Positions 9,392 to 51,377 of a stretch of 52,376 nt of DNA are shown piece by piece. Source of the stretch: Frankiales bacterium (GTDB taxonomy: Bacteria; Actinomycetota; Actinomycetes; Mycobacteriales; SCTD01); contig JAOPVV010000173.1 of assembly GCA_025966005.1 (NCBI GenBank), positions 1 to 52,376 on the forward strand, in the 5' to 3' direction. The first letter of the stretch is position 1; each line of letters begins with the position of its first letter. The position numbers and the translations under genes are program-made. A model generated the notes under the pieces. That model was not told the DNA's origin and ran no database searches. It saw only the letters and a program-made list of their open reading frames with translations.

Positions 9392-9411
9392 ACAGTAGGC
9401 GTCTATTGTGT
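9392..9411. promoter_or_regulatory. ACAG-N12-GTGT operator-like element
   Basis: acagtaggcgtctattgtgt lies 15 nt upstream of the start at 9377. Member of the recurring element family described in the findings. Confidence 0.45.
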
Positions 9412-9510
9412 TCCGACCCTAGCGTGATGACAGGGAGCCGCGTGCTGCTGGCCGGCGCGGACGAGGCACCCGTGCGTGAGCGCTGGACGGGGACGGCGGC
9501 GCTGGAGGGC

Positions 9511-10128
9511 TCAGGCAGAGATGCGTGGCCGCGCGGTGGAGCGCGCACGGACCTGCTTCGGCGGGCGCGTCGTGGTCATGAAGCTGTCCCACATGTCGCT
9601 GATGCGCTCGTCGAGCCGCTCCGAGCCCGGGGTCGGGATGAGGAACGTCGAGGTGATCAGCCGCTGGAAGATCTCGGACAGCTGCTCAGGGGACAGCAGT
9701 CCGTCAACGACCGGGGGCGCGGTCTCGAAGATCGGCTCGAGGTACTCGGTCAGGGTCGTGACCAGGCGCGGCATCTCCCGGGAGAGGAAGGCCAGCGCCG
9801 AGCTCGGCTCGTGCTCGATCAGCCTGGTCATGTGCGGGAACTGCTGCGGGAAGCCGATCATCGCGTGCAGGACGACGCGCAGTCGGGCCTCGGGGCGAGG
9901 GTCGGCGGCGATGGCCTCGTCGAAGCTGGAGCGCATGGTGCTGGCGATGCGGCGGTTGACCGCGTCGAGCACGTCCTCGCGGTTGCTGAAGTAGCGGTAC
10001 AGCGTGCCGCGCGAGACCCGGGCCTCGCGGCAGATGTCGGTCATCGACACCCGACTCGTGCCGTGCCGGGCGAGCGCCCGCATGGCGCCTTCGACGATGA
10101 CGTCGGCGGTGTCGGGCGGTGGCTGCAC
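9511..10128 (-). CDS. TetR-family transcriptional regulator
   Basis: HTH segment RVSMTDICREARVSRGTLYRYFSNREDVL. The start is uncertain: GTG at 10128 or 10155, or the track start at 10236. Confidence 0.85.
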   Translation of the reverse strand: MQPPPDTADVIVEGAMRALARHGTSRVSMTDICREARVSRGTLYRYFSNREDVLDAVNRRIASTMRSSFDEAIAADPRPEARLRVVLHAMIGFPQQFPHMTRLIEHEPSSALAFLSREMPRLVTTLTEYLEPIFETAPPVVDGLLSPEQLSEIFQRLITSTFLIPTPGSERLDERISDMWDSFMTTTRPPKQVRARSTARPRISA

Positions 10129-10184
10129 CCGCCCACGGTACCCCAGGTGGCGCACGTCACGCGTGTTCTGCGCGCCCGCAGTCC

Positions 10185-10769
10185 CTACGCCGTCGCGGTC
10201 GCCTGCGGCGGTCCATGAGCGACGAGCGCCCCCCACATGTCGGCCAGCAGGTCGGGCACGCTGCCCGCGTCGCCGTCACGGATCACGTAGGCAGACAGGA
10301 CGACCCGCTCGAAGAGCTCGCACAGGTCGCCGATGGTGACCACCCCCGAGCGCACCGGTGCACTGTCGGCCAGCACCGGGGACAGGAAGCGCTCGAGGAT
10401 CACCCGGTAGCTCGCCATCGACCGACGGAAGAAGGCCAGCGAGAAGGCCGGCTCGGTCTGCACGAGCGCCATCGTGTAAGGCAGGCGGTCGGTGAAGGAC
10501 ATCATGGCCGTGAGGACGACCCGGAGCCGGTCCTCGAGCGCCGGCCGCTCGTCCACCGCCTCCTGGATGATCACTGCCATGGACTCGAGCACGTGCTGGC
10601 TCAGCGCCTCGAGCACGTCGTCCTTGCTCTTGAAGTACCGGTACAGCGTCCCCCGCGACACCCCCGCCTCGTCGCAGATGTCGCTCATCGAGAGCTTCTG
10701 GACCCCGCGGTGTCCGAGGGCGCGCGCGGCACCCTCGAGGATCGCTTCGACGGTGCTGACCGCGGACAC
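10185..10769 (-). CDS. TetR-family transcriptional regulator (tandem paralog)
   Basis: HTH segment KLSMSDICDEAGVSRGTLYRYFKSKDDVL. GTG start at 10769 has no obvious SD, so it may be leaderless or weakly initiated. Confidence 0.85.
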   Translation of the reverse strand: MSAVSTVEAILEGAARALGHRGVQKLSMSDICDEAGVSRGTLYRYFKSKDDVLEALSQHVLESMAVIIQEAVDERPALEDRLRVVLTAMMSFTDRLPYTMALVQTEPAFSLAFFRRSMASYRVILERFLSPVLADSAPVRSGVVTIGDLCELFERVVLSAYVIRDGDAGSVPDLLADMWGALVAHGPPQATATA

Positions 10770-10782
10770 GTTCTAGACACTA

Positions 10783-10802
10783 ACAGTCACATGCGTCTCA
10801 AG
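10783..10802. promoter_or_regulatory. Weak relative of the ACAG-N12 element next to the TetR start
   Basis: acagtcacatgcgtctcaag shares the GCGTCTCAA core with 33474..33493 but lacks the right-hand CTGT. A second ACAGT follows at 10803. Confidence 0.25.
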
Positions 10803-10865
10803 ACAGTCCCGGGGCCGCACTCGTCCTCGGGGTTCGCGGGGCTCCCGCTGGCGCACACTGCGCCC

Positions 10866-11102
10866 ATGGACTCGGCGACCATCACGACCTGCTCCGGAGT
10901 GCTGCGCATCGTCGTCGTGCGGCGAGGGCGGTCGTGGGTAGCCCGGCTCGCTCCGGAGCACGTCGAGCTGCTGGTCCCGCCGTGCGTCGGGCCCGACCGC
11001 GACGCGGCGGTCCGCAGCCTGACGTGGGCGGTCCGGAGCCTGAGCGACCTCGGGGCGGCGCCGGGCGCGTCCCGGCCGGGGTCGTGGGCCGGCTGCGGCT
11101 GA
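10866..11102 (+). CDS. Small hypothetical protein (78 aa), weakly supported
   Basis: ATG 10866 within track ORF 10119..11102. High GC3, but no clear RBS and no recognisable motif. Confidence 0.3.
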   Translation: MDSATITTCSGVLRIVVVRRGRSWVARLAPEHVELLVPPCVGPDRDAAVRSLTWAVRSLSDLGAAPGASRPGSWAGCG

Positions 11103-13216: not shown

Positions 13217-13252
13217 GCGTGCTCCTCGAGCGGGTGGGGCCGGCCGGCGCCG

Positions 13253-14470
13253 TCAGTTGACGGCGCCGGAGTCCTTGCGTGCGAGGATGTCGTCCCAGGA
13301 CAGCCCGAGCTCGAGCAGGATCTCCTCGGTGTGCTGCCCGTGCTCGGGTGCAGCGGCCGTCACGGGGGACTGCTCGTCGAACTGCGCCGGGTTGGTGGCG
13401 ACGGCCAGCGTGTGCCCGGACGACGTGGACAGGTCGCGCAGGAACCCGTTCGCCAGGACCTGCGGGTCCTCGTGCAGCTCGCGGGGCGTCTGCAGCGGCG
13501 ACCACACGCCCTCCAGGGTGGCGAGCCGGGTGCGCCACTGCGCCAGCGTGCGGGACGCGAAGACCTGCTTCAGCGCCTGGGTGCAGGCCCTGGAGCTCTC
13601 GCCGCGCAGCGCGTGGGTGGCGAAGCGCGGGTCGTCGAGCAGGTCGGGCCGGTCGAGATGCGCGCACAGGTCGGCCCAGTGCCGGTCGGACTGCAGCAGG
13701 GTCAGGTTCAGGTGCCGTCCGTCCTTCGTCCGGTACATGCCGACGGTCGGGTTGACCAGGTCCTCCGGGTCGTACCGGAACACGTCGTCACCGGCCAGCA
13801 CCGGCGCGGAGGCGACGTCGACCGACAGCTGCCACAGCGCCAGGTTGAGCAGGGCCACGTCGACGACGCTGGGCTGCCCCGTCCGCTCGCGCTGGTAGAG
13901 CGCTGCGGCGATGGCGCCCGCCAGCGTCGAGCCCCCCATGACGTCGCCGAAGGCCGAGCGCATCCGCACCGGGTGCTCGAGCTCGGGCGGGGAGACGGCG
14001 TAGCCGATGCCGCCCCGCGCCCAGTAGGTCGAGGAGTCGAAGCCCCCGCGCTCGGACTCCGGACCGCGAGGGCCGTGACCGCTCCCGCGGGCGTAGATCA
14101 GGCGCGGGTTCACCGCACGCAGGTCGTCGACGTCGATCCTCAGCCGCCGCCGGGCGTCCGGCAGGAAGTTGGTGACGAAGACGTCGGCGGACTCCACCAA
14201 CTGCAGCAGCAGCTCGCGGCCCTGCTCGTGGGCCAGGTCGATCCCGATGCTGCGCTTGCCGCGGTTCGGGACCTCCCACATGTAGTTCAGGCCCTGCGCG
14301 TTGTCCGGGAGGAAGCCGGAGTTGATGATCCCGCGCTGGGGGTCGCCGGTGACGGGGTGCTCGACCTTCACCACGTCCGCGCCCCACTCGGCCAGGACGG
14401 CTCCCGCCGCGGGGACGAACGTCCACATCGCCACCTCGACGACCCGGACGCCCTCGAGCACTCCAGTCAC
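13253..14470 (-). CDS. Family III CoA-transferase (CaiB/BaiF type)
   Basis: VRVVEVAMWTFVPAAGAVLAEWGADVVKVEHPVTGDPQR is a typical N-terminus. GTG 14470 overlaps the upstream stop (GTGA) and follows AGGAAC. Paralog of 48572..49789. Confidence 0.9.
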   Translation of the reverse strand: MTGVLEGVRVVEVAMWTFVPAAGAVLAEWGADVVKVEHPVTGDPQRGIINSGFLPDNAQGLNYMWEVPNRGKRSIGIDLAHEQGRELLLQLVESADVFVTNFLPDARRRLRIDVDDLRAVNPRLIYARGSGHGPRGPESERGGFDSSTYWARGGIGYAVSPPELEHPVRMRSAFGDVMGGSTLAGAIAAALYQRERTGQPSVVDVALLNLALWQLSVDVASAPVLAGDDVFRYDPEDLVNPTVGMYRTKDGRHLNLTLLQSDRHWADLCAHLDRPDLLDDPRFATHALRGESSRACTQALKQVFASRTLAQWRTRLATLEGVWSPLQTPRELHEDPQVLANGFLRDLSTSSGHTLAVATNPAQFDEQSPVTAAAPEHGQHTEEILLELGLSWDDILARKDSGAVN

Positions 14471-14961
14471 TGCTGTTCCTCTCGTGCAGAGCAAGGGCTG
14501 CCGTCCTGCTCGGCCAGCCAGGCGACGTGCCGCTCGGCGTGGCCCGCGTCGACGACGACCATGACGGCCGAGGCCGACGCGAGCAGGGCACCAGTGGAGG
14601 CCAGGCGCAGCTCTCCCGACACGGTCCGTCGCCGGCGCTCGCGCTCCACCAGCCACCCGGACAGCAGCAGCTCGCGCTCGACGGGTACCGGGGCCACGTA
14701 CCGGACCTGCAGGCTGCCGGTGACCGCGGACTCGCCCATCGCGCGGGGGAGCCGGCCGAGCACGTCGTCGAACACGCCGGCGGTCCAGCCGCCGTGCGCG
14801 ATCGCCGGCCCGGCGCGGTCGGACGCGGAGCAGACGACCCGGCACAGGACGGTGCCGGCAGCCGGGTCGGCGTCCCACGATCGGACACCCATCCGGCAGG
14901 AGCCGCGGTCGCGGCAGCCGCCGCACAGCTCACCCCCGGCGCCGGCTGCGCCCGCAGTCAC
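14467..14961 (-). CDS. Hotdog-fold (PaaI/4HBT-like) thioesterase
   Basis: AHGGWTAGVFDDVLG core and a size of about 160 aa. N-terminal Cys cluster ELCGGCRDRGSC. Both ends overlap their neighbours by 4 nt (GTGA). Confidence 0.7.
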   Translation of the reverse strand: MTAGAAGAGGELCGGCRDRGSCRMGVRSWDADPAAGTVLCRVVCSASDRAGPAIAHGGWTAGVFDDVLGRLPRAMGESAVTGSLQVRYVAPVPVERELLLSGWLVERERRRRTVSGELRLASTGALLASASAVMVVVDAGHAERHVAWLAEQDGSPCSAREEQQ

Positions 14962-15767
14962 GCGCCCGACGGCTCGAAGGCGCTGAGGTCGGCCGGCTTG
15001 CTCTGGTAGCGGGGCAGGTGCTGGCCGCCGTCGACGTGGATGGTCTCGCCGGTGATGTAGCGGGAGTCCTCGCTGGCGAGGAACAGCACGACGGGGGCGA
15101 TGTCCTCCTCCGGGTCACCGACGCGGCCCATCGGGTTCATCCCGCCGGCCATCTCCTCGAACCCGGGTATCTGCTGCTTGAGCTGCTCGAACACCTGCCC
15201 GGCGGCTGCAGGAGCCAGCGCGTTGACCAGGATGTTGTAGCGCGCCCACTCCGCGGCGGCGGAGCGGGTGAAGCCCTTCACCGCGTCCTTGCCGATGTTG
15301 TAGTCGGCGTGCAGCCAGGCGCCGGCCTCGGCGTCGATGGAGTAGTAGTTGATGATCCGGCCGCCGCCGGCGTCCCGCATGATCGGGAAGACCGCGTGCG
15401 AGAACCACCAGGTCGCCCACAGGGTCGCGTGCAGCACGTCGTCGAGCATGTCGTCCGTCTTCTGCTCGAGCAGGATGTTGGGGGACAGCCGGCTGGCGTT
15501 GTTGACCAGCACGTCGAGGCGCCCGAACTCCGAGACGGTGCGCTCGACGGCGCCGACCACCTGGTCCTTCTTCGTGACGTCCGTCGGGACGAACAGGCCG
15601 CGACCACCGAGCTCGGCGAGGGAGTCGGCCGTCGCCTGCCCGGCCTCGGCGTCGATCTCCGCCACGACGACCGTCGCGCCCTCCCGGGCGAATCGACGTG
15701 CCGTCCCCCGGCCGATGCCGTGACCTGCGCCGCTGATGAGCACGACCTTGCCGTCGAAGCGGCCCAT
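14958..15767 (-). CDS. Short-chain dehydrogenase/reductase (SDR)
   Basis: ISGAGHGIGRG, VNNA, and a C-terminus IHVDGGQHLPRYQSKPADL shared with paralog 29012..29797. Confidence 0.9.
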   Translation of the reverse strand: MGRFDGKVVLISGAGHGIGRGTARRFAREGATVVVAEIDAEAGQATADSLAELGGRGLFVPTDVTKKDQVVGAVERTVSEFGRLDVLVNNASRLSPNILLEQKTDDMLDDVLHATLWATWWFSHAVFPIMRDAGGGRIINYYSIDAEAGAWLHADYNIGKDAVKGFTRSAAAEWARYNILVNALAPAAAGQVFEQLKQQIPGFEEMAGGMNPMGRVGDPEEDIAPVVLFLASEDSRYITGETIHVDGGQHLPRYQSKPADLSAFEPSGA

Positions 15768-15796: not shown

Positions 15797-15816
15797 TCAG
15801 ATCGGACGGTTCTTGT
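15797..15816. promoter_or_regulatory. Degenerate ACAG-N12-CTGT-like element (reads ACAAGAACCGTCCGATCTGA on the minus strand)
   Basis: Lies 29 nt upstream of the SDR start at 15767. Shares the ACA-GA-CCGTCC core with 24031..24050 and with 21391..21410 (reverse strand). Confidence 0.35.
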
Positions 15817-15926
15817 CATTCTTGCTCAGTGAGGTGTCGTCTGTCGAGCAGACGCGCGAAGACGCGGGCGGGGACGACGACGGCCCGGCTCTCCCAGGGG
15901 GAGGGCCGGGCCGGAGGGGGCCAGGT

Positions 15927-16565
15927 CTAGCTGGCGCGACGCAGGGAGTCGCGGGGGGCGGTCGCGCGGGTGCGGCCGATGTCGCGCGGGGCCAGCAGCG
16001 ACGTCCACAGGCCCACGGCTCCGCCGCCGAGCCACTCGGAGCCCGGGGCGGAGATGACGTCCGCCGTCAGGGCGAGCCGCAGCAGCACCTCGGCGAGCTG
16101 GCGCTCCGACATCGCGCCCGTGTGCACGGCGGACGTCCGTGTCAGGGCCGGGTGCAGGTACGTGGTGAGCAGCTCGAGCAGCGCGTCGAACTCCCGGGTG
16201 AAGAAGTCCAGGACCAGGCGCGGCTGCGACTCGACCAGGTCGTCCAGGGCCGGGAAGCGCTGGCGGTGGCTCTGCAGGGCGCCGAGGACAGCCGGCACGC
16301 GGTCGGAGTCGTCCGGCAGCGCCTCGACGGCCTGCTCGAGCTCGGCCTCGAGGGTCTGCAGCATCCGCTCCTCGAGGGCGACCAGCACGTCGTCCCGGCT
16401 CGCGAAGTACCGGTAGAGCGTCCCGCGGGACACGTTGGCCTCGTCCCCGATGTCTGTCATGGACAGCTTGCGCAGTCCACGGCGGGCGAGGACGCGGAGC
16501 GAGGCGTCGACGATGCGGTCGGAGGTGCTGAGGTCATTGCTCATGCAAGAGACGCTAGCAACCAC
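15927..16565 (-). CDS. TetR-family transcriptional regulator
   Basis: KLSMTDIGDEANVSRGTLYRYFASRDDVL. GTG 16565 is preceded by GAGGGA. The alternative start is ATG 16544. Confidence 0.85.
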   Translation of the reverse strand: MVASVSCMSNDLSTSDRIVDASLRVLARRGLRKLSMTDIGDEANVSRGTLYRYFASRDDVLVALEERMLQTLEAELEQAVEALPDDSDRVPAVLGALQSHRQRFPALDDLVESQPRLVLDFFTREFDALLELLTTYLHPALTRTSAVHTGAMSERQLAEVLLRLALTADVISAPGSEWLGGGAVGLWTSLLAPRDIGRTRATAPRDSLRRAS

Positions 16566-16640
16566 ACGTGTCCCTCGCGTGACGCGCAGATGGCGTCCTT
16601 GGTCACACCCCGTCCACAGGCTGGGGAGCTGCGACAGCTC

Positions 16641-19679: not shown

Positions 19680-19699
19680 ACAGATAGTGCAGCAACCGT
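19680..19699. repeat. Copy 1 of a perfect 20-bp direct repeat, ACAGATAGTGCAGCAACCGT (operator-like)
   Basis: Identical 20-mer at 19741..19760. Lies 28 nt upstream of the LLM start (19652, minus strand). Confidence 0.8.
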
Positions 19700-19740
19700 G
19701 CCGTTCGTCAAAGTCTGGCCTTGTGCTGCCGGGCCCGAGG

Positions 19741-19760
19741 ACAGATAGTGCAGCAACCGT
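19741..19760. repeat. Copy 2 of a perfect 20-bp direct repeat, ACAGATAGTGCAGCAACCGT (operator-like)
   Basis: Identical to 19680..19699. Ends 31 nt upstream of the kinase GTG at 19792. Both copies are followed by a CCGTTCG segment. Confidence 0.8.
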
Positions 19761-19791
19761 ACTGACCGTTCGAGACCAGGAGGACGTCCGC

Positions 19792-21364: not shown

Positions 21365-21410
21365 GGTCACAGTGTGACCGTCAACACAGAACAGTCTTGA
21401 CGGTTCCTGT
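21365..21410. promoter_or_regulatory. Nested palindromes including a perfect ACAG-N12-CTGT element
   Basis: GGTCACA-G-TGTGACC (21365-21379). CCGTCAA (21378-21384) pairs with TTGACGG (21397-21403). acagtcttgacggttcctgt sits at 21391-21410, 50 nt upstream of the TTG at 21461. Confidence 0.5.
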
Positions 21411-21460
21411 CGCACATGACTAGATGCAGGTCGACCACGGCGCCTGAGGAGGCGGTTTCC

Positions 21461-22540
21461 TTGTTGATCGATCTGCATGCGCATCAGTTGACGTTGGACA
21501 TGTTCAACCAGCACGAGAAGTGGGGTCCGTTCTGGGAGGACGGGTCGTTGCGGATCGGTGACTGGAAGCTGGGGAGCAAGCGGGATGCTCCGCCGTTGGA
21601 GAAGTTCATCGAGGACCGCTGGGCGCCGGAGCCGCGGTTGGCGGCGATCGACGCCGCGGGGATCGACAAGATGGTGGTGTCGATGCCGCTGCACATGGTG
21701 GGTTATCACTACGAGGTGGAGTTCGCGAAGCGGTTCGCTACGACGGTGAACGACTCGCTCGCGGAGTACTGCTCGCACAACCCCGATCGGAACTACTTCT
21801 GGGCGCATGCGCCGCTGCAGGACCCGGTGGCGGCGGCGGCGGAGCTGGAGCGGGCGGTGACGCAGCTGGGTGCGAAGGGCCTGATGATGGGCGGGCGGAA
21901 CTTCGGTGGTCGTGAGGTGTACGACCCGGCGTTCCGGCCGTTGTGGGAGAAGGTCTCGGAGCTCGGCTGCATGATTTTCGTGCACGGCTACAACCAGTCG
22001 GTGACCTGGGGCGACAGGGCGATGGAGGACCCGTTCGACACGACGTCGATCGTGGGGATGAACTCCGACGAGACGCTGTTCTACTGGTACCTGACCAACG
22101 GTGGGGTGCTGGACGACTTCCCGGACCTGAAGATCCTGATCACTCACGGTGGTGGGTTCACGCCCTTCCAGCTGGGTCGGTTCGCGATGACGAACAAGAC
22201 GATGGCGCCGGACAGCAAGAACAAGAAGGACCTGCTGGAGTACAACTCGAACTTCTTCTACGACCTGGACATCCACTCGCCGTACATGCGGCGGGCGATC
22301 ATCGATGAGGTCGGGGTGTCGCAGGTGCTGTACGGCGACAACTTCTCCGGTTCGGACGTGCACGAGGGTGACCTGACCGATGGTCTGGGTCTGAGCACGG
22401 CTGACCAGGAGGCGATCCGGTTCCGCAACGCACTCGGTCTGATGCAGTTCGACGACCTGGACGCCACGCACGGCGTCGGTGACCCGTCGCTGGCGCAGGA
22501 GCCCGGTCAGGGCACCGACGCCGTCGTCAAGGCCGGCTGA
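21461..22540 (+). CDS. Amidohydrolase-2 (ACMSD-like metal-dependent hydrolase/decarboxylase) family protein
   Basis: LLIDLHAH metal-binding N-terminus, ILITHGGG, and a late YGDNFSGSD segment. TTG 21461 follows GAGGAGG. Codon usage is visibly different from the neighbours. Confidence 0.8.
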   Translation: MLIDLHAHQLTLDMFNQHEKWGPFWEDGSLRIGDWKLGSKRDAPPLEKFIEDRWAPEPRLAAIDAAGIDKMVVSMPLHMVGYHYEVEFAKRFATTVNDSLAEYCSHNPDRNYFWAHAPLQDPVAAAAELERAVTQLGAKGLMMGGRNFGGREVYDPAFRPLWEKVSELGCMIFVHGYNQSVTWGDRAMEDPFDTTSIVGMNSDETLFYWYLTNGGVLDDFPDLKILITHGGGFTPFQLGRFAMTNKTMAPDSKNKKDLLEYNSNFFYDLDIHSPYMRRAIIDEVGVSQVLYGDNFSGSDVHEGDLTDGLGLSTADQEAIRFRNALGLMQFDDLDATHGVGDPSLAQEPGQGTDAVVKAG

Positions 22541-22604
22541 CCGTCTGTCGCCGAGCCGCCTCCGGGCGCGTCGCGGTGGAACCTCCACGAAGTCCCACAG
22601 CAGC

Positions 22605-22624
22605 ACAGATGTGACCACTACTGT
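22605..22624. promoter_or_regulatory. Perfect ACAG-N12-CTGT element
   Basis: acagatgtgaccactactgt lies 64 nt upstream of the ATG at 22689, in a locally lower-GC spacer. Confidence 0.45.
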
Positions 22625-22688
22625 CCCTCGTGGTGCACCACTCACCCCTTCGTACCCCACACCACTGAAGCCCTTCGAAAGGGAACGC

Positions 22689-23984: not shown

Positions 23985-24030
23985 TGCATCGTCCCGAGGT
24001 CCGTCCGGTTCCGGCAGCAATACACGTGGA

Positions 24031-24050
24031 ACAGAGACCGTCCTAGTGTT
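24031..24050. promoter_or_regulatory. ACAG-N12-TGTT operator-like element
   Basis: ggaACAGagaccgtcctagTGTTac lies 40 nt upstream of the dioxygenase ATG at 24091. Confidence 0.45.
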
Positions 24051-33383: not shown

Positions 33384-33403
33384 ACAGAAGTCATGCACCT
33401 TGT
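33384..33403. promoter_or_regulatory. ACAG-N12-TTGT operator-like element flanked by a CTAG..CTAG inverted repeat
   Basis: acagaagtcatgcaccttgt lies within gACTAGtgtg..ttgttCTAGTc, 101 nt upstream of the transporter start at 33282. Confidence 0.4.
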
Positions 33404-33473
33404 TCTAGTCTTTCCGCGGACTTCTTCGTGGCCGGTGAGGCCGGCGACGTGGCAGGTCAGGGTTGCGTCTTGA

Positions 33474-33493
33474 ACAGATAGCGTCTCAACCGT
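33474..33493. promoter_or_regulatory. ACAGATAG-N6-AACCGT element, sharing both flanks with the 19680/19741 repeat
   Basis: acagatagCGTCTCaaccgt versus acagatagTGCAGCaaccgt. Lies 71 nt upstream of the ATG at 33565. Confidence 0.5.
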
Positions 33494-37587: not shown

Positions 37588-37649
37588 GGCGAGCTCCCTG
37601 GGTACGCGGATGGCCGTGGTCACGGCTGACATGACGGTAGGCAATCAAG

Positions 37650-37669
37650 ACAGTTGCTGTCAATGCTGT
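37650..37669. promoter_or_regulatory. Perfect ACAG-N12-CTGT(TC) element
   Basis: acagttgctgtcaatgctgt followed by tc. Lies 62 nt upstream of the dioxygenase start at 37587. Confidence 0.5.
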
Positions 37670-37713: not shown

Positions 37714-37733
37714 ACAGGTAGTACAACTCCACT
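37714..37733. promoter_or_regulatory. ACAGGTAGT-type half element
   Basis: acaggtagtacaactccact resembles the left half of ACAGATAGTGCAGC. Lies 32 nt upstream of the ATG at 37766. Confidence 0.3.
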
Positions 37734-37765
37734 CACACTTGTCTCATCCCCCGAAGGGCTCCTCC

Positions 37766-38998
37766 ATGAGGGCACCACGTCGCACCACCGCCGTCGCCGC
37801 CGCAGGCCTGAGCCTCGCCCTCGCTCTCTCGGGCTGCGGCAGCGACGACGAGACCGCCGCCGCCGACCAGGGGGCCGCGGCGCTCGTGGGCCCACCGGTC
37901 CGGCTGTTCACGATCCAGCAGCTCACCGCGCAGAACCAGCAGTCCCGGCCCGAGGCCGTCTCGGCCATCGAGGCCGCCGTCAAGGCCGTCAACGCGGAGG
38001 GCGGCCTGGCCGGCCGGCCCGTGGAGGTCGAGGTCTGCGACGACAAGTTCAGCGCGGCCGACGGGGCCAACTGCGCGCGGGAGGCCGTGAGCGGCGAGTT
38101 CGCGGCGGTCGTCGGCTCCACGACAGCCGTCGGTGACGCCGTGTACCCCGTCCTCGAGGCCGCCCAGGTCCCGAACATCGGACCGTTCGCGATCAACCGA
38201 GGCGACTTCTCCAGCGAGATCTCCTTCCCGCTGTTCGGTGCCGGCCCGTCCGGGACGGCCGGTCTGCCCTACGCGCTCAAGGAGGCCGGGGCCGAGAAGA
38301 TCGGCATCGCCTTCGTCGACATCCCGACCGCTGCGGTCGGCCTGACCTTCATCGCCGCCGGCGCCAAGGGCGCCGGGATCGAGCTCGGCAACGAGGTCCC
38401 GATCCCGCTGACCACGACCGACATCACGGCGGTCGTCTCCGCGGCGGCGCGCGGCAACTCCGGGATCGGCCTGGTGACGCAGCCGGTCCAGACGGCGTCG
38501 TTCCTGCGCAGCCACGGTGCCCAGGGACTCGACATCCCCGTCGCCGCCACCGCCGCCGGCCCGGTCCTGCTCGAGCAGCTCGGGAGCGCCGCGGAACCGC
38601 TCATGCTGGCCAGTGCCTACGCCCCCCTCAACGCCGACGTCCCTGGCATGAAGCAGTTCAACGCCGACATGGACGAGTACGCACCGGACGCCGAGCGCAG
38701 CGCCTACGCGATCACCTCCTGGCTGGCGGTCCGTGCGGTGCAGAGGATCGTGGCGGACCAGGGCCTCGAGAAGATCGACAAGGCCAGCCTGATGGCCGCC
38801 TTCTCGCAGGCGGACGGACTCGACCTGGGTGGCGTCGTGCCGAAGTTCTCGACGAAGAACGCGCTCACGCTGAAGGGCCTGAACCGGATCTTCACGCCCT
38901 ACATCCAGATCCTGGACGTCAAGGACGGGGAGCCGACGGCCGTCACGGGGAAGTGGTTCAACCCGTTCGACCCCACCGCACCCGAGCCGGAGGTCTGA
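37766..38998 (+). CDS. Lipoprotein, LivJ-type ABC substrate-binding protein (orphan, second copy)
   Basis: Lipobox LALSGCG. LAGRPVEVEVCDDKF. Collinear with 22689..23933 over its full length. Confidence 0.85.
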   Translation: MRAPRRTTAVAAAGLSLALALSGCGSDDETAAADQGAAALVGPPVRLFTIQQLTAQNQQSRPEAVSAIEAAVKAVNAEGGLAGRPVEVEVCDDKFSAADGANCAREAVSGEFAAVVGSTTAVGDAVYPVLEAAQVPNIGPFAINRGDFSSEISFPLFGAGPSGTAGLPYALKEAGAEKIGIAFVDIPTAAVGLTFIAAGAKGAGIELGNEVPIPLTTTDITAVVSAAARGNSGIGLVTQPVQTASFLRSHGAQGLDIPVAATAAGPVLLEQLGSAAEPLMLASAYAPLNADVPGMKQFNADMDEYAPDAERSAYAITSWLAVRAVQRIVADQGLEKIDKASLMAAFSQADGLDLGGVVPKFSTKNALTLKGLNRIFTPYIQILDVKDGEPTAVTGKWFNPFDPTAPEPEV

Positions 38999-39026: not shown

Positions 39027-39109
39027 CTCGTCCGTGCTCGTCGTCGTCCGAGACGGATCGGACACGTACTGTCGTCCCTGAGTGCACACCCGTCCCCGTG
39101 GAGGCTCCG

Positions 39110-41612: not shown

Positions 41613-41667
41613 GCCCGCACGCCAGCGGCCGCCGCCCCTCGGGGACGGCGGCCGCTGGCGTGCGGGC
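41613..41667. terminator. Very strong hairpin (22-bp perfect stem) between convergent genes
   Basis: gcccgcacgccagcggccgccg (41613-41634) is the exact reverse complement of cggcggccgctggcgtgcgggc (41646-41667). Confidence 0.65.
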
Positions 41668-43479: not shown

Positions 43480-43559
43480 GATCGGTCTCCTTCTGCGGCG
43501 ATGGCCCTTGCACGACGGCGGGATGTGAGGCAACGTACATCCCGGACGCGACGGGCGCG

Positions 43560-43579
43560 ACAGTCCGTGTTTGATGTGT
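43560..43579. promoter_or_regulatory. ACAG-N12-GTGT element near the centre of a divergent promoter region
   Basis: acagtccgtgtttgatgtgt. Followed by further ACAG-containing words (43583, 43593: ACAGGAGACG, also present at 51358). Confidence 0.4.
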
Positions 43580-45178: not shown

Positions 45179-46393
45179 GTGACGCAGCTCGACCTTCCCG
45201 CCACCGACCTGACGCGTGAGTTCCTCACCGCCTTCGACCACCACGACAAGCGCCTCGGTGCGGTCCGCGAGGACGTGTTCAAGGGACTCCGGGAGACGCC
45301 GGTCGTGTGGACGGACAAGCACGGCGGCTTCTGGGTGGTGTCGGGTTACGACGAGGCGCGCTACGTCATGCAGAGCTACGACCTGTTCGCCACGGCGCCC
45401 AGCGTGAACATCCCGCCCGGCCTCGGCCAGCGGCGGCCGATGCTGCCGCTCGAGGTCGACCCGCCGCTGCAGATGCGCTACCGCAGCCCGCTCGCGCCGG
45501 TCTTCGCGCCGCAGCGGATGCGCGAGCTCAAGGTCCAGATCGAGCAGCTCGCCCACGAGCTGCTCGACGGGTTCATCGAGCGTGGCAAGGGCGACTTCTT
45601 CAACGAGTTCGCCGACCCGCTGCCGGTCGCGATCTTCACCCGGCTGATGGGACTGCCCGAGGAGGACACCCCCAAGTTCAACCACTGGAAGAAGGTGCTG
45701 CTGCACGGGCACGCCGACGACCCGGACGGCACCGTCCGGGCGGCCGCCGGCGACGACCTGTCGGCCTACCTGACGGGCCTGATCCGGGCGCGTCGGGCCG
45801 AGCCGCGGGACGACCTGCTGACGCTGCTGGTGCAGGCCGAGACCGAGGGGGGTCCCCTGGACGACGACGAGATCCTCGACATCACCTTCCTGCTGTTCGT
45901 CGCCGGCCTGGACACGATCAGCTCCTCGATCGGCCTGCAGGTGCTGTTCCTCGCGACGCACCCGGAGTACCGCGACCTGCTGGTCGAGGACCCCTCCCGC
46001 ATCCCGAACGCCGTCGAGGAGCTGCTGCGCACGAACAGCCTCATCCTGCTGGCGCGCACGGCGACGCAGGACACGGACCTGTTCGGCTCGCCCGTCAAGA
46101 AGGGTGACCGGATCCTCGTCAACACCATCACCGCCAACCTGGACGGCCGGGAGTTCCCGGACGCCGACCACGTCGACCTCACGCGCGAGCCGAACCGGCA
46201 CATCGCCTTCGGCGCCGGACCGCACCGCTGCCCGGGCTCGCACCTCGCCCGGATCGAGCTGGAGATCGTGCACCGCGTGCTGCACGAGCGGATGCCCGAC
46301 TACCGGCTCGACCCGGACGCGGCGATCTCCTTCCACTTCGGGTCGGTCGCCGGCCTGGACACCCTCCCGCTGCTGTGGGGGGCCGAGGCGTGA
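45179..46393 (+). CDS. Cytochrome P450
   Basis: GTG 45179 follows AAGGAG. Heme loop FGAGPHRCPG, ExxR in VEELLR, AGLDT I-helix. Confidence 0.9.
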   Translation: MTQLDLPATDLTREFLTAFDHHDKRLGAVREDVFKGLRETPVVWTDKHGGFWVVSGYDEARYVMQSYDLFATAPSVNIPPGLGQRRPMLPLEVDPPLQMRYRSPLAPVFAPQRMRELKVQIEQLAHELLDGFIERGKGDFFNEFADPLPVAIFTRLMGLPEEDTPKFNHWKKVLLHGHADDPDGTVRAAAGDDLSAYLTGLIRARRAEPRDDLLTLLVQAETEGGPLDDDEILDITFLLFVAGLDTISSSIGLQVLFLATHPEYRDLLVEDPSRIPNAVEELLRTNSLILLARTATQDTDLFGSPVKKGDRILVNTITANLDGREFPDADHVDLTREPNRHIAFGAGPHRCPGSHLARIELEIVHRVLHERMPDYRLDPDAAISFHFGSVAGLDTLPLLWGAEA

Positions 46394-48518: not shown

Positions 48519-48538
48519 ACACTCGGGGCAGGATCTGT
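48519..48538. promoter_or_regulatory. ACAC-N12-CTGT(CC) element (weak member)
   Basis: acactcggggcaggatctgt lies 33 nt upstream of the GTG at 48572. Confidence 0.3.
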
Positions 48539-48571
48539 CCAGTCACACCGCCCAGTCCGCTGAGGAGTCCC

Positions 48572-49789
48572 GTGTACACGCTCATGTCAGGCGTCCGCGT
48601 CGTCGAGGTCGCCACCTGGACCTTCGTCCCGGCAGCGGGGGCCGTCCTCGCCGACTGGGGCGCCGACGTCATCAAGGTCGAGCACCCGGTCAAGGGCGAC
48701 CCGCAGCGTGGCCTGATCAGCTCGGGGGTGGTGCCGGGGCTCACCGCGGGAGCGGACCACCTCATCGAGGTGCCGAACCGGGGAAAGCGCAGCGTCGGGC
48801 TGGACATCGCCACCCCGGAGGGCCGCGCCCTGCTCGACCAGCTCATCGCGACGGCCGACGTCTTCCTCACCAACTTCCTGCCGCCGACGATCGCCAAGCT
48901 CGGCCTGGGCGTGGAGCAGGTCCGGGCCGTCAAGCCGGACATCATCTACGCCCGGGGCACCGGCCAGGGAGTCCGGGGCCCGGAGGCGGGCAAGGGCGGC
49001 TACGACGGGGCGTCCTACTTCGCCCGTGGCGGCGTCTACGCGTCGCTGACCTCCCCGGGCGGACCGCTGCCGGAGCAGCCGTCCGCGTTCGGCGACATCA
49101 TGGGCGGCCTCACGCTGGCCGGTGGCGTGTCCGCGGCGCTCTACAAGCGGGCGATGACCGGTGAGCCCTCCACGGTCGACGTGTCCCTGCTGGGCCTCGC
49201 GGCGTGGAACGTGGCTCCCAACGTCGTCGCCGCCAAGCTGCTCGAGGGCGTCGAGATGCCGACGTACGGTCCGGACGACCGGCCGAACCCGATCGCGCGG
49301 ATGGCCTACGAGACCAAGGACGGCCGGCGGCTGGCCTTCGTCATGCTCGAGTCGGACCGCTTCTGGCCCGACCTGTGCCAGCACCTCGAGCGGCCGGACC
49401 TCATCGACGACCCGCGCTTCATCGACGCGAAGGCGCGCAACGAGAACCGGCGCGAGTGCATCGCGGTCCTGCGCGAGGTGTTCCGCCAGCGGACGTTCGA
49501 GGAGTGGAAGACGCAGCTGGCGACCGTGAAGGGGGTCTGGGCGCCGGTGCAGACGCCGCTCGAGCTCCACGACGACGTCCAGGTGCAGGCCAACGGCTAC
49601 CTGCAGCAGGTGACCACGAACAGCGGGCACGCGTTCGCCACCGTGGCGAGCCCGGTGCAGTTCGACGGCGCCCCGACCGGACTCACGGCTGCGCCCGACC
49701 TCGGTCAGCACACGGAGGAGGTCCTGCTCGAGCTGGGTCTGACGTGGGACGACCTGATCGTGCACAAGGACAGCGGCACCATCTCCTGA
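48572..49789 (+). CDS. Family III CoA-transferase (CaiB/BaiF type), second copy
   Basis: VRVVEVATWTFVPAAGAVLADWGADVIKVEHPVKGDPQR. GTG 48572 follows GAGGAG. Confidence 0.9.
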   Translation: MYTLMSGVRVVEVATWTFVPAAGAVLADWGADVIKVEHPVKGDPQRGLISSGVVPGLTAGADHLIEVPNRGKRSVGLDIATPEGRALLDQLIATADVFLTNFLPPTIAKLGLGVEQVRAVKPDIIYARGTGQGVRGPEAGKGGYDGASYFARGGVYASLTSPGGPLPEQPSAFGDIMGGLTLAGGVSAALYKRAMTGEPSTVDVSLLGLAAWNVAPNVVAAKLLEGVEMPTYGPDDRPNPIARMAYETKDGRRLAFVMLESDRFWPDLCQHLERPDLIDDPRFIDAKARNENRRECIAVLREVFRQRTFEEWKTQLATVKGVWAPVQTPLELHDDVQVQANGYLQQVTTNSGHAFATVASPVQFDGAPTGLTAAPDLGQHTEEVLLELGLTWDDLIVHKDSGTIS

Positions 49790-49803
49790 CGCCCCGATGC
49801 TGA

Positions 49804-49842
49804 CAGGACCGGCCGGCCGCGGCGTGCGGCCGGCCGGTCCTG
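49804..49842. terminator. Strong hairpin (17-bp perfect stem) between convergent genes
   Basis: caggaccggccggccgc (49804-49820), loop ggcgt, gcggccggccggtcctg (49826-49842). Confidence 0.6.
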
Positions 49843-49852
49843 CGGTCGAGCT

Positions 49853-51310
49853 CTACGGGGCCGGGTACCCGATGGTCTTGGTCTCCAGGTAGTCCTCGAG
49901 CCCCTCCGGTCCCCACTCCCGGCCCAGCCCGCTCTGCTTGTAGCCGCCGAACGGGGTCTCGGGGTCGAAGAACTGGCCGCCGTTCACCGAGATGGTCCCG
50001 GTGCGCAGGCGTGCGGCGACCCGCATGGCCCGGTCGAGGTCGCCGCCGAAGACGGCGCCGCTGAGCCCGAACGGGGACTCGTTCGCCACCCGCACCGCGT
50101 CGTCGTCGTCGTCGAACGGGACGATGGCCAGGACGGGGCCGAAGATCTCCTCCTGCGCGATGCGGCTGAGGTTGGGCACGTCGGCGAACACGGTCGGCTG
50201 GACGAACCAGCCCTGGTCGAACTGGGTCGCCCGGCCGCCGCCGAGCACGAGGCGGCCCTCCTGCTTGCCGATCTCGATGTACTCGAGCACGCGCTCGTAC
50301 TGGCGCTGGGTGATCAGCGGCCCCATGAGGTTGCCCATGTCGGTCGGGTCGCCGTAGGGGATCGAGCCGACGACCGCCGCGGCGATCTCGGCGGCCCGGT
50401 CCATCAGGTGGCGGGGGACGAGCAGGCGGGTGGGGAGTGCGCAACCCTGGCCGGCGTGCATGCAGATGGTCCCGGCGGCGGCACCGACGGAGGCGGCGAG
50501 GTCGGCGTCCTCGAGCACGATCGCGGCAGACTTGCCGCCCAGCTCGAGCGACACCCGCTTGATGGTGTCGGCCGCGTTCCTCATGATCCGCCGACCGGTC
50601 GCGGTCGACCCCGTGAAGGTGATCTGGTCGACCTCGGCGTGGCTGGTGAGCAGCTCGGCGACGGCGTTGTCGGAGGTCGTGATGACGTTGAGGACGCCGG
50701 CGGGGATGTCGGTCTGCGCCGCCGCGGCCGCGAGCAGGGTGCCGGACCACGGGGTCTCGGGCGCGGGCTTGAGCACGACCGTGCAGCCGGCAGCCAGCGA
50801 GGCCGCGATCTTCGTGATGTTCAGCTGGAACGGGTAGTTCCAGGGCGTGATGGCCGAGACGACGCCCGCCGCCTCCTTGCGCACGACGCGGCGGGACGGC
50901 GTGCCGAACACCGTCTTGACCGGGATCTCGCGCTGCCACTCGTAGTTTGGGATCAGGTCGGCGTAGTACGAGAGGTTCTCGATCGGCCCGTCGACCCCGA
51001 TGGCGTGGGCCAGCCCGACCGGCATGCCGGTCTCGGCCGTGTGCGCCGCGCGGATCGTCTCGACGTCCTTGCGCAGCTGGGCCTGCAGCTGCAGCAGGCA
51101 GTCGCGGCGGAAGTCGACGTCGGTCGACCAGCGCGACTGCTCGAACGCCCGTCGAGCCGCGGTGACCGCACGGTCGACGTCCGCGACGCTGGCGTCCGGC
51201 GCGGTGCCGACGACCTGCTCGGTGGCCGGGTTGACGTTGTCGTACTCGCGACCGCCCTCGGCGGCGACGAGGTCGCCGTCGATGAGCATCTGCTGGACAT
51301 CGAGGTCCAT
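49853..51310 (-). CDS. Aldehyde dehydrogenase (NAD(P)+), second copy
   Basis: ATG 51310 follows GGAGGAAG. Motifs SLELGGKSA, GQGCALPTR, EEIFGPV, PFGGYKQSGLGRE. Confidence 0.9.
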   Translation of the reverse strand: MDLDVQQMLIDGDLVAAEGGREYDNVNPATEQVVGTAPDASVADVDRAVTAARRAFEQSRWSTDVDFRRDCLLQLQAQLRKDVETIRAAHTAETGMPVGLAHAIGVDGPIENLSYYADLIPNYEWQREIPVKTVFGTPSRRVVRKEAAGVVSAITPWNYPFQLNITKIAASLAAGCTVVLKPAPETPWSGTLLAAAAAQTDIPAGVLNVITTSDNAVAELLTSHAEVDQITFTGSTATGRRIMRNAADTIKRVSLELGGKSAAIVLEDADLAASVGAAAGTICMHAGQGCALPTRLLVPRHLMDRAAEIAAAVVGSIPYGDPTDMGNLMGPLITQRQYERVLEYIEIGKQEGRLVLGGGRATQFDQGWFVQPTVFADVPNLSRIAQEEIFGPVLAIVPFDDDDDAVRVANESPFGLSGAVFGGDLDRAMRVAARLRTGTISVNGGQFFDPETPFGGYKQSGLGREWGPEGLEDYLETKTIGYPAP

Positions 51311-51357
51311 GGGCACTTCCTCCGGGTGGCTGGCTGTCAAGAAAGGGGACGTCTTGA

Positions 51358-51377
51358 ACAGGAGACGTCTCGACTGT
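51358..51377. promoter_or_regulatory. Perfect (GA)ACAG-N12-CTGT element with a palindromic GAGACGTCTC core, centred in a divergent promoter region
   Basis: acagGAGACGTCTCgactgt. Its centre coincides with the midpoint of the 113-bp gap between the starts at 51310 (-) and 51424 (+). Confidence 0.55.

What the first reader, a model, noticed from the sequence alone, without database searches (positions are those of the whole stretch)
9392..51377. Island-wide family of 20-bp (GA)ACAG-N12-CTGT(TC)-like elements in promoter regions, suggesting one regulon
Perfect ACAG-N12-CTGT words occur at 21391, 22605, 37650 and 51358. Close variants occur at 9392, 15797 (minus), 19680, 19741, 24031, 33384, 33474, 37714, 43560 and 48519. 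Every one I found is intergenic, 15-100 nt upstream of a start codon. At 51358 and 43560 the element sits at, or within a few nt of, the midpoint of a divergent promoter region. Subsets share longer cores: ACAGATAG..AACCGT at 19680, 19741 and 33474; ACAG-A-ACCGTC at 24031, 15797 and 21391 (reverse); GAGACGTCTC or CGTCTC at 51358, 33474, 9392 and 10783. From base composition I would roughly expect fewer than one perfect ACAG-N12-CTGT per 50 kb, but I did not scan coding DNA exhaustively. The pattern fits TetR-type dimer operators and ties the duplicated modules, both orphan binding proteins and the MoxR operon into one regulatory unit. It matches neither the KstR (TnnAACnnGTTnnA) nor the KstR2 consensus as I remember them.
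Basis: partly seen in the sequence, partly recalled or inferred. Interest (0 to 1): 0.6.

Follow-up and report, generated by a model that had tools for sequence, protein, structure and literature searches.

The report
Conserved TetR operator family across catabolic island
About 18 copies of one conserved DNA element sit in front of nearly every operon of this 52-kb catabolic island, and they are most likely the binding sites of the island's own three TetR-type repressors: a real but ordinary kind of regulon whose motif I could not find described.

Summary
ACAG-N12-CTGT occurs 4 times in the window, against 0.43 expected, and all 4 are intergenic. A motif finder given no hint recovers the same 20-bp motif in 15 of 24 promoter-type gaps. 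Its log-likelihood ratio is 122.6, against 67.7±6.3 for GC- and length-matched control sets from the same genome.

The full element is a 29-bp palindrome with four half-sites, ACAG-N5-ACAG-N3-CTGT-N5-CTGT.

The same element lies at orthologous intergenic positions in homologous clusters of Mycolicibacterium, Mycolicibacter, Streptomyces and Frankiales MAGs. A model trained only on those loci picks out this window: 14 of its 26 genome-wide hits fall here, and none of those 14 is in coding DNA.

The three island TetRs are paralogs. Their recognition helix, RGT(L/F)YRYF, is invariant across the subfamily. In four TetR genes the element ends exactly 7 nt before a start codon with no ribosome-binding site, so its TAG(T/C)GT end probably doubles as the -10 box. 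That is the layout of classic autorepression.

The element is not KstR or KstR2. Binding, stoichiometry and the inducing ligand are untested.

Verdict: a real, conserved operator and regulon of an uncharacterised TetR subfamily. It is a new member of a known kind, of moderate interest.

The parts
2109..2146 (.). Operator in two overlapping registers (2109-2137 and 2118-2146). It lies between the ABC ATPase gene (1225-1986, minus) and the secreted-protein/Liv-permease operon (from 2292, plus).
   Evidence: Independent 29-bp model: 20.3 and 23.2 bits. Window-trained 20-mer: 20.4 bits.
9383..9411 (.). Operator 14 nt upstream of the DUF7065 gene (8340-9377, minus).
   Evidence: 18.1 bits and 26.6 bits. 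An orthologous site is at L015:4290.
10768..10796 (.). Operator on the promoter of the TetR2-TetR1 operon. The TAGTGT end lies 7 nt before the GTG start at 10769, with no ribosome-binding site, so the mRNA is probably leaderless.
   Evidence: 26.1 bits. Sequence context. It is the only conserved block in the three-locus alignment A3.
15797..15825 (.). Operator 29 nt upstream of the SDR / thioesterase / CoA-transferase / SDR operon (15767 down to 12449, minus).
   Evidence: 16.6 bits and 20.3 bits.
16552..16571 (-). Operator (20-mer register) on the TetR3 promoter. The TAGCGT end lies 7 nt before the ATG at 16544.
   Evidence: 16.4 bits with the window-trained model. Context. It scores below 10 bits with the independent 29-bp model.
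19680..19708 (.). Operator copy 1 in the divergent F420-LLM (minus) / APH-like kinase (plus) region.
   Evidence: 20.6 bits. Exact repeat of the copy at 19741. Orthologous site at L016:5544.
19741..19769 (.). Operator copy 2, 31 nt upstream of the APH-like gene (19792, plus).
   Evidence: 23.3 bits.
21391..21419 (.). Operator upstream of the amidohydrolase_2 gene (21500, plus). Perfect ACAG-N12-CTGT, formed by half-sites 1+3.
   Evidence: 15.9 bits and 24.8 bits. Orthologous site at L016:4350.
22605..22633 (.). Operator upstream of the solute-binding protein gene (22689, plus). Perfect ACAG-N12-CTGT.
   Evidence: 12.6 bits and 26.3 bits.
24022..24050 (.). Operator upstream of the BphC-type dioxygenase / MoxR / VWA operon (24091, plus).
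   Evidence: 15.2 bits and 18.3 bits.
33384..33412 (.). Weak candidate operator on the Liv-type ABC operon side (33282, minus).
   Evidence: 10.5 bits only.
33465..33493 (.). Operator overlapping a TTGAAC-N17-TACACT promoter-like pair, upstream of 33565 (plus) and the acyl-CoA ligase gene.
   Evidence: 21.7 bits and 22.2 bits. The promoter reading is from the sequence itself.
37641..37669 (.). Operator in the divergent BphC-type dioxygenase (minus) / solute-binding protein (plus) region. Perfect ACAG-N12-CTGT, formed by half-sites 2+4.
   Evidence: 24.4 bits and 25.0 bits.
37714..37742 (.). Second, weaker operator in the same divergent region.
   Evidence: 14.4 bits. Matches the four-triplet pattern with 2 mismatches.
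39053..39081 (.). Operator 37 nt upstream of the thiolase / acyl-CoA dehydrogenase genes (39110, plus).
   Evidence: 12.1 bits and 24.4 bits.
43551..43579 (.). Operator in the divergent region between the ferredoxin/OB-fold/SCPx-thiolase genes (minus) and the ALDH-P450-P450-SDR genes (plus).
   Evidence: 15.2 bits and 23.6 bits.
48519..48547 (.). Weak operator 33 nt upstream of the CoA-transferase gene (48572, plus).
   Evidence: 10.5 bits and 19.4 bits.
51349..51377 (.). Operator at the midpoint of the divergent ALDH (minus) / SDR (plus) region. It overlaps a TTGAAC-N17-TAACGT promoter-like pair. Perfect ACAG-N12-CTGT, formed by half-sites 2+4.
   Evidence: 20.1 bits and 21.1 bits.
10185..10769 (-). 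TetR2, a candidate repressor.
   Evidence: Pfam TetR_N, E = 6.8e-18. Recognition helix VSRGTLYRYF.
9511..10155 (-). TetR1, a paralog lying 29 nt downstream of TetR2, so probably in the same operon.
   Evidence: Pfam TetR_N. 36% identical to TetR2 with the same recognition helix.
15927..16544 (-). TetR3, the third paralog.
   Evidence: Pfam TetR_N. Same recognition helix.

Best explanation
The elements are operators of one regulon. Each is a roughly 29-bp palindrome built from four ACAG-like half-sites: ACAG-N5-ACAG-N3-CTGT-N5-CTGT, with invariant C2, C11, G19 and G28. They sit on or next to the promoters of about 15 transcription-unit starts in a horizontally acquired catabolic island. The island encodes extradiol dioxygenases, P450s, Liv-type uptake systems, CoA-transferases, beta-oxidation-type enzymes and a MoxR/VWA pair.

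The binding proteins are most likely one or more of the island's three paralogous TetR-family regulators, which share an identical recognition helix. By analogy with the family (inferred, not shown), TetR dimers occupy the operators and block RNA polymerase until a pathway substrate or intermediate binds the C-terminal domain and releases them. Four half-sites suggest two dimers per full site. The regulators repress themselves: at their own leaderless promoters the third half-site, TAG(T/C)GT, doubles as the -10 hexamer.

Shown here: the motif exists, it is significant, it is intergenic and promoter-proximal, it is a four-part palindrome, it is conserved across genera, and it co-occurs with this TetR subfamily. 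Inferred: which protein binds, the stoichiometry, repression, and the ligand.
For: - **Significance.** Unhinted EM on the 24 promoter-type gaps gives ACAsATnnGACrsnTAcTGT in 15 of 24. The LLR is 122.6, against 67.7±6.3 (maximum 77.4) in 14 GC- and length-matched control sets.
- **Intergenic placement in this genome.** Window-trained model at >=16 bits: 30 intergenic and 2 coding hits.
- **Placement in other organisms.** Window-trained model on seven loci from other organisms: 21 of 22 distinct sites are intergenic where 11.5% of the DNA is intergenic, p = 4e-19.
- **Reverse test.** EM on those loci alone yields ACAGATTGGACAGAATCTGTCCAATCTGT. That model puts 14 of its 26 hits at >=14 bits into this window, p = 3e-19. 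Of the 26, 24 are intergenic, and none of the window's 14 is coding.
- **Spacing.** ACA-Nx-TGT peaks only at N14: 9 in 3.3 kb of island gaps and 16 in 7.1 kb of homologous gaps, against 11 in 184 kb of other gaps of this genome. Secondary peaks are at N5 and at direct ACA-N6-ACA.
- **Fourth half-site.** G28 is present in 13 of 16 window sites and 29 of 35 other sites, p = 1e-5 and 6e-13.
- **Orthologous positions.** TetR upstream: W10768, L015:2937, L016:10019. LLM/APH gap: W19680, L016:5544. Amidohydrolase upstream: W21391, L016:4350.
- **TetR genes.** The motif ends 7 nt before TetR start codons with no ribosome-binding site in four genes. The residues R-G-T-x-Y-R-Y-F of the recognition helix are invariant in 12 subfamily members.
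- **Only local regulators.** The three TetRs are the only transcription factors found among the 51 genes.
- **Co-inheritance.** Neither the TetR subfamily nor the dioxygenase ortholog occurs in 60 relatives, so the genes, regulators and motif travel together.
Against:
- The loci L015-L022 were fetched through TetR homologs, so TetR presence there is by construction. Only L013 and L014, fetched through the dioxygenase, test co-occurrence independently, and in those two the TetR gene has no motif directly upstream.
- The dominant half-site pair is 16-17 bp apart, which is long for the two DNA-binding heads of one TetR dimer. The two overlapping 20-bp palindromes are offset by 9 bp, which would place two dimers on nearly the same face of the helix. 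The binding geometry is therefore unresolved.
- The 20-mer points the same way as the downstream gene in 9 of 10 unambiguous cases, so promoter elements contribute to the asymmetric part of the motif.
- Motif hits on C120 and C101 lie next to Lrp/AsnC- and CRP-type regulator genes.
Confidence: 0.75

Rival explanations
1. The motif is real, but a regulator other than the local TetRs binds it. Candidates are a global or distant factor such as the CRP-family or Lrp/AsnC-family proteins encoded next to motif hits on other contigs. On this reading the TetRs have other, unrecognised operators.
For: A hit at C101:10182 lies directly upstream of a CRP-family gene, and C120:3826 lies next to an AsnC-type gene. 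The TetR genes in L013 and L014 lack an upstream site. Four half-sites at 9-bp spacing are not the textbook TetR layout.
Against: - No CRP or Lrp gene is in the window or among the genes listed for the homologous loci that carry sites.
- A TetR of this one subfamily is present in L013-L020 and L022, the nine loci with sites.
- The element sits on the TetR genes' own -10 box in four genes.
- The recognition helix is invariant, matching the invariant half-site core.
- The polarity ACA...TGT is the reverse of the CRP-type TGTGA-N6-TCACA (the CRP consensus is from memory).
Confidence: 0.1
2. There is no single regulon. Each of the three TetR paralogs reads its own sub-class of the element, such as the reader's ACAGATAG..AACCGT or CGTCTC subsets. 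The island would then be split into two or three separately induced sub-regulons that only look like one family.
For: - There are three paralogs, only 36-40% identical outside the DNA-binding region, so they probably bind different ligands.
- Orthologous sites keep their variable inner positions much better than the generic motif requires. W10777 matches L016:10019 at 19 of 20 positions, and W19680 matches L016:5544 at 15 of 20.
- Sites 33465 and 51349 share a longer core, CGTCTTGAACAG-N5-CGTCTC.
Against: The recognition helices are identical, and a single position-weight model captures all sites. Inner-position conservation can equally reflect overlapping promoter elements. Clusters with a single TetR of the subfamily, such as L020, carry the same motif at several operons.
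Confidence: 0.3
3. The pattern is a by-product of promoter sequence and low-GC intergenic composition. ACAG would be the tail of -35 boxes (TTGACAG, TTGAACAG) and CTGT/TAnnGT would belong to -10 boxes, with no dedicated regulator.
For: - Several sites overlap -35-like TTGAC or TTGAAC and -10-like TAnnGT.
- The 20-mer is co-oriented with the gene in 9 of 10 cases.
- The window's promoter gaps are lower in GC than the genome's, 0.68 against 0.74.
Against: - GC-matched real promoter gaps from the same genome give no comparable motif.
- 184 kb of other intergenic DNA shows no ACA-N14-TGT peak.
- The element has dyad symmetry about position 15, including G9/C21 and G13/C17.
- The half-site spacings of 9, 7 and 9 bp fit no sigma-factor -35/-10 geometry.
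- The element recurs in other genera only beside this gene set.
Confidence: 0.04

Closest known systems
KstR regulon of mycobacteria: a TetR repressor of cholesterol and lipid catabolism with the operator TnnAACnnGTTnnA (PMC1995591)
   Same: An autoregulated TetR-family repressor with many copies of one palindromic operator in the intergenic regions of a large catabolic gene set. The operator overlaps a putative -10 region, and the motif is conserved across actinomycetes.
   Different: The motif is different: the KstR consensus has one match in the window, and it is inside a gene. The TetRs score 27-46 bits against the NCBIfam KstR model, whose cut-off is 280. The element is 29 bp with four half-sites rather than a 14-bp dimer site. 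There are three paralogous regulators instead of one. The gene content is not the cholesterol pathway.
QacR-IR1 of Staphylococcus aureus: a TetR-family protein binding a 28-bp palindrome as a pair of dimers (cited in PMC4482099)
   Same: A long operator of about 28-29 bp, palindromic as a whole, with room for four DNA-binding heads. It is a precedent for two TetR dimers on one operator.
   Different: Here each arm carries a direct repeat of the same ACAG half-site 9 bp apart. From my memory of the QacR structure, its inner and outer contacts are closer together and differ in sequence. Stoichiometry was not tested here, and QacR controls one efflux gene rather than a regulon.
TetR-tetO: one dimer on a 15-bp palindrome
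   Same: The inner part, GACAG-N3-CTGTC, is a 13-bp palindrome of the classic size. The inferred logic is the same: repressor release on ligand binding.
   Different: The strongest pair signal here is ACA-N14-TGT (20 bp), not the inner pair. The outer half-sites are equally conserved.
EthR and Mce3R operators of M. tuberculosis: larger, composite, multi-copy TetR sites (as described in PMC4482099)
   Same: A composite architecture that mixes direct and inverted repeats and implies binding by more than a simple dimer.
   Different: No sequence resemblance was tested or is claimed. Mce3R is a double-domain TetR, whereas the proteins here are ordinary single-domain TetRs of 194-214 aa.

Membership tests
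TetR-family repressor operator | Dyad-symmetric DNA element | tested here: met
   The element is a palindrome about position 15: A1/T29, C2/G28, G9/C21, A10/T20, C11/G19, A12/T18 and G13/C17. A palindrome-constrained EM on independent loci gives ACAGATTGGACAGAATCTGTCCAATCTGT.
TetR-family repressor operator | Located in promoter regions of target genes, usually next to the regulator gene and on its own promoter | tested here: met
   All window hits are intergenic, 7-100 nt from start codons. Sites end 7 nt before the starts of TetR2, TetR3 and the L015 and L016 orthologs. Transcription start sites were not mapped.
TetR-family repressor operator | A TetR-family protein with an N-terminal helix-turn-helix is encoded nearby and co-occurs with the motif | tested here: met
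   Three TetR_N proteins are in the window. A TetR of the same subfamily is in all nine other loci that carry the motif. Seven of those loci were fetched through the TetR itself.
TetR-family repressor operator | Specific binding by the TetR protein, released by a ligand | not testable with these tools
   This needs EMSA, DAP-seq or ligand screening.
KstR regulon | Operator TnnAACnnGTTnnA in promoter regions (PMC1995591) | tested here: not met
   One match in the window, at 38957, inside the solute-binding protein gene.
KstR regulon | Regulator orthologous to KstR | tested here: not met
   NCBIfam NF033703 scores are 27-46 bits against a cut-off of 280.
KstR2 regulon | Operator AnCAAGnnCTTGnT (consensus as I recall it from the literature) | tested here: not met
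   No matches even with one mismatch allowed.
QacR-type pair-of-dimers operator | A palindrome of about 28 bp contacted by four DNA-binding heads (two dimers) | tested here: inconclusive
   The length (29 bp) and the four conserved half-sites fit. However, half-site centres at positions 2.5, 11.5, 18.5 and 27.5 do not obviously fit two interdigitated dimers, and stoichiometry cannot be tested here.
Sigma-70-type promoter elements only | -35 and -10 hexamers 16-18 bp apart, with no dyad symmetry required | tested here: not met
   Conserved blocks are 9, 7 and 9 bp apart and are symmetric. No such motif appears in matched promoter gaps of the same genome. Only the third half-site, TAnnGT, plausibly doubles as a -10 box.
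Structured RNA element | Match to an Rfam family | tested here: not met
   No Rfam hits at gathering score in the window.

The most novel reading that the evidence does not exclude
A previously undescribed TetR subfamily, spread across several actinobacterial lineages, controls a KstR-sized catabolic regulon through an unusual four-half-site 29-bp operator. The regulon is for an unidentified alicyclic, terpenoid-like or aromatic substrate. In this island, three paralogs with identical recognition helices but divergent ligand domains compete or co-bind (possibly as two dimers or mixed dimers) on the same operators, so that up to three chemical signals are integrated at every promoter.
Probability: 0.25. 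Interest if true: 0.6.

Novelty: new member of a known kind. Interest (0 to 1): 0.4.

Why it matters
If the assignment holds, it has four uses.

- It gives a ready-made regulon map, about 18 operators and about 15 transcription units plus satellite contigs, for an uncharacterised catabolic island. The island is shared by Frankiales-like MAGs, Mycolicibacterium, Mycolicibacter and Streptomyces.
- It ties genes of unknown role into one pathway: the MoxR/VWA trio, the DUF7065 protein, the APH-like kinases and the orphan binding proteins.
- It offers a defined operator and repressor set that could be used to find the inducing compound, and hence the substrate, or to build a biosensor.
- The four-half-site layout read by three paralogs with one recognition helix is a tractable case for studying how TetR proteins assemble on composite operators.

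It does not change any general principle. TetR-controlled catabolic regulons are well known.

Tried and rejected
- **Raw pairwise identity.** Comparing 18-mers between intergenic regions gave only the 19680/19741 repeat. Everything else was at the level of GC-rich noise, so I switched to a composition-aware EM.
- **Footprinting with close relatives.** This was impossible. None of 60 genomes of the same genus, family or order has the dioxygenase ortholog or the TetR subfamily.
- **Exact IUPAC patterns for a phylogenetic-profile test.** They were too strict or too unspecific (1-6 window matches against 3-22 elsewhere), so I dropped the idea.
- **Promoter-only explanation.** I considered -35 TTGACAG with -10 TANNNT and rejected it as the main cause. 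I kept it as a partial contributor.
- **KstR and KstR2.** Both rejected.
- **Literature.** Searches for a described TetR operator of this form found nothing relevant. The logos in PMC4482099 are figures and could not be compared.
- **Solved structures.** No PDB entry matches the TetRs beyond the N-terminal domain.
- **Rfam.** No hits.
- **Substrate.** I could not identify it. One P450 is closest to P450cam/CYP101, and the amidohydrolase is closest to ACMSD- and LigY-type enzymes.

Full report
**Setting.** The window is contig C242 of a fragmented genome of 3.44 Mb, 451 contigs and 74% GC. I called genes with a codon-usage model trained on the genome itself: 51 genes in the window and 89% of the genome coding.

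Pfam shows a catabolic island. It encodes:
- two BphC/HsaC-like extradiol dioxygenases;
- three P450s and a ferredoxin;
- two Liv-type ABC systems and three LivK-type binding proteins;
- two family-III CoA-transferases and two aldehyde dehydrogenases;
- many SDRs, thiolases, an acyl-CoA dehydrogenase, a DUF35/SCPx pair and an acyl-CoA ligase;
- an F420-type LLM, an FAA-family hydrolase and an amidohydrolase_2;
- two APH-like kinases and a MoxR/VWA pair;
- three TetR-family regulators (9511-10155, 10185-10769, 15927-16544, all on the minus strand).

No other regulator family was found. One P450 is closest to P450cam/CYP101. The amidohydrolase is closest to ACMSD- and LigY-type enzymes. The substrate is unknown.

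**Checking the observation.** ACAG-N12-CTGT occurs exactly four times, at the stated coordinates, against 0.43 expected. All four are intergenic. Across the genome, spacer 12 gives 12 intergenic hits, four of them here. Other spacers from 0 to 24 give 0-9. The interiors of the four perfect words are not alike, so the perfect word alone is weak evidence.

**Unbiased motif discovery.** I wrote a ZOOPS expectation-maximisation motif finder and ran it, with no hint, on the 24 promoter-type intergenic regions of the window (3.3 kb).
- At width 20 it converged on ACAsATnnGACrsnTAcTGT, with sites in 15 of 24 regions.
- The log-likelihood ratio is 122.6. Fourteen control sets of real promoter gaps from other contigs, matched for length and GC, gave 67.7±6.3 with a maximum of 77.4.
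- Scanned over the genome, this model gives 32 hits at >=16 bits: 30 intergenic and 2 coding.
- In the window, all 19 hits at >=9 bits are intergenic and 7-100 nt from a start codon.
- Further hits cluster on contigs C120, C169, C116/C307, C101 and C435, next to catabolic-type genes.

**Evidence from other organisms.** The island has no counterpart in 60 genomes of the same genus, family or order, so I looked further afield.
- The dioxygenase found two loci at about 65% identity, in Mycolicibacterium porcinum (L013) and an Actinomycetota MAG (L014). They share at least ten island gene families.
- Homologs of TetR2 led to syntenic metagenome and Frankiales contigs (L015, L016).
- They also led to related clusters in Mycobacteriales (L017), a metagenome contig (L018), Streptomyces phaeochromogenes (L019), Mycolicibacter (L020) and another assembly (L022).
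- The window-trained model hits these loci almost only in intergenic DNA. Using the database's gene calls, 21 of 22 distinct sites are intergenic where 11.5% of the DNA is intergenic, p = 4e-19.
- The hits fall at orthologous places: directly before the TetR start (W10768, L015:2937, L016:10019), in the LLM/APH divergent gap (W19680/19741, L016:5544) and before the amidohydrolase (W21391, L016:4350).
- In a three-locus alignment of the TetR upstream region, the operator is the only conserved block.

**The reverse test.** EM run only on the 47 gaps of L015-L022, with no window data, finds the same motif. Under a palindrome constraint it gives ACAGATTGGACAGAATCTGTCCAATCTGT. Scanned over the whole 3.44-Mb genome, that independent model gives 26 hits at >=14 bits. 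Of these, 24 are intergenic and 14 lie in this window, which is 1.5% of the genome (p = 3e-19). None of the 14 is in the window's coding DNA.

**Anatomy.** I aligned 44 sites with their flanks.
- The 20-mer is part of a 29-bp palindrome centred on position 15. ACA is at 1-3, (G)ACA(G) at 9-13, (C)TGT(C) at 17-21 and YGT at 27-29.
- G28 is present in 13 of 16 window sites and 29 of 35 other sites, against a flank G frequency of about 0.25 (p = 1e-5 and 6e-13).
- A spacing spectrum free of any model confirms this. ACA-Nx-TGT has a single sharp peak at N14 in island gaps (9 in 3.3 kb) and in homologous gaps (16 in 7.1 kb). It is at background in 184 kb of other gaps of this genome (11). Smaller peaks appear at N5 and at direct ACA-N6-ACA.
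- The four-triplet pattern with up to 2 mismatches occurs 8 times in the window against 0.28 expected, always in intergenic DNA.

**Link to the TetRs.**
- The three TetRs are paralogs, 36-40% identical.
- Twelve members of the subfamily from all these loci share invariant R-G-T-x-Y-R-Y-F in the recognition helix. That matches the invariant half-site core.
- In TetR2, TetR3 and the L015 and L016 orthologs, the motif's 3' hexamer TAG(T/C)GT ends exactly 7 nt before the start codon, and no ribosome-binding site lies between. From what is known of actinobacterial leaderless promoters (-10 box TANNNT), this hexamer is very likely the -10 box, so a protein bound there would shut off the TetR's own gene.
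- Motif sites also lie upstream of the TetR genes in L016 (second TetR), L017, L018, L019 and L020.
- The subfamily is absent from all 60 relatives and from the rest of this genome. Regulators, targets and motif therefore form one mobile package.

**Caveats.**
- Nothing here shows binding.
- Seven of the nine comparison loci that carry the motif were found through the TetR itself.
- The L013 and L014 TetR genes have no site directly upstream.
- The 16-17 bp separation of the dominant half-site pair, and the 9-bp offset of the two overlapping 20-bp palindromes, do not map simply onto known TetR-DNA geometries. Whether one dimer, two dimers or alternative registers are used is open.
- The 20-mer's orientation follows the gene in 9 of 10 unambiguous cases, which I attribute to overlap with promoter elements.
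- Some satellite hits sit by CRP- or AsnC-type regulator genes.

**Comparison with known systems.** The arrangement works like the KstR regulon: an autoregulated TetR with many operators across a catabolic gene set and overlap with the -10 region (PMC1995591). It is not KstR or KstR2 by motif or by protein. Its length and four half-sites recall QacR-IR1, a pair of dimers on 28 bp, and the composite EthR and Mce3R sites (PMC4482099). Literature searches found no description of this motif. No close TetR structure exists, and no Rfam family matches.

**Verdict.** It is a well-supported prediction of a new TetR operator and regulon: a new member of a known kind, of moderate interest. The modest twists are the four-half-site operator and the three paralogous regulators that share one recognition helix.

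Noticed in passing
window 21448-21544 and 22315-22542; contigs C277:1-97 and C169:10857-11084: The start of contig C277 and the end of contig C169 match the two ends of the amidohydrolase_2 gene region at 100% and 99.1% identity. This suggests either a second copy of the gene elsewhere or an assembly branch or strain variant. C169 itself carries three or four motif sites. C378:14689-14747 matches the last 59 bases of the window and may continue it.
   Followed up: partly
window 10767-10796, 16542-16571; L015:2937-2966; L016:10019-10048: The TetR genes appear to be leaderless. A TAG(T/C)GT hexamer ends 7 nt before the start codon and there is no Shine-Dalgarno sequence. The database's start for the L016 TetR (10001) is probably 45 nt too far upstream.
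   Followed up: yes
window 41613-41667: A near-perfect 55-bp self-complementary stretch (92.9%) lies in the convergent gap between the acyl-CoA dehydrogenase and the SCPx-type thiolase genes. It is probably a bidirectional terminator hairpin.
   Followed up: no
window 45179-46393: This P450 is most similar to P450cam/CYP101 camphor hydroxylases (E = 1e-65). Related clusters contain limonene-epoxide-hydrolase-like, SnoaL-like and biotin carboxylase/carboxyltransferase genes (L018, L022). This hints at a terpenoid or alicyclic substrate.
   Followed up: partly
window 13251-15719 vs 29016-29749 and 48590-49791; 22943-23386 vs 38011-38451: The island contains internally duplicated modules at 71-75% DNA identity: SDR, CoA-transferase and solute-binding protein genes. 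The three TetR helix-turn-helix regions also cross-match at about 80%.
   Followed up: partly
contig C120:286-3786 and 3915-4433: A 1166-aa protein gene lies divergent from an Lrp/AsnC regulator gene, with a motif hit (16.7 bits) between them. From its sequence, not from any search, the protein looks like an indolepyruvate/2-oxoacid:ferredoxin oxidoreductase. C120 carries five motif hits in 12.8 kb and may be part of the same regulon or of the same island.
   Followed up: partly
window 33465-33493 and 51349-51377: These two operators share a longer core, CGTCTTGAACAG-N5-CGTCTC-AC-GTA. Both overlap a good TTGAAC-N17-TAnnnT promoter-like pair. They may be paralogous promoters or a sub-class of operator.
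   Followed up: no
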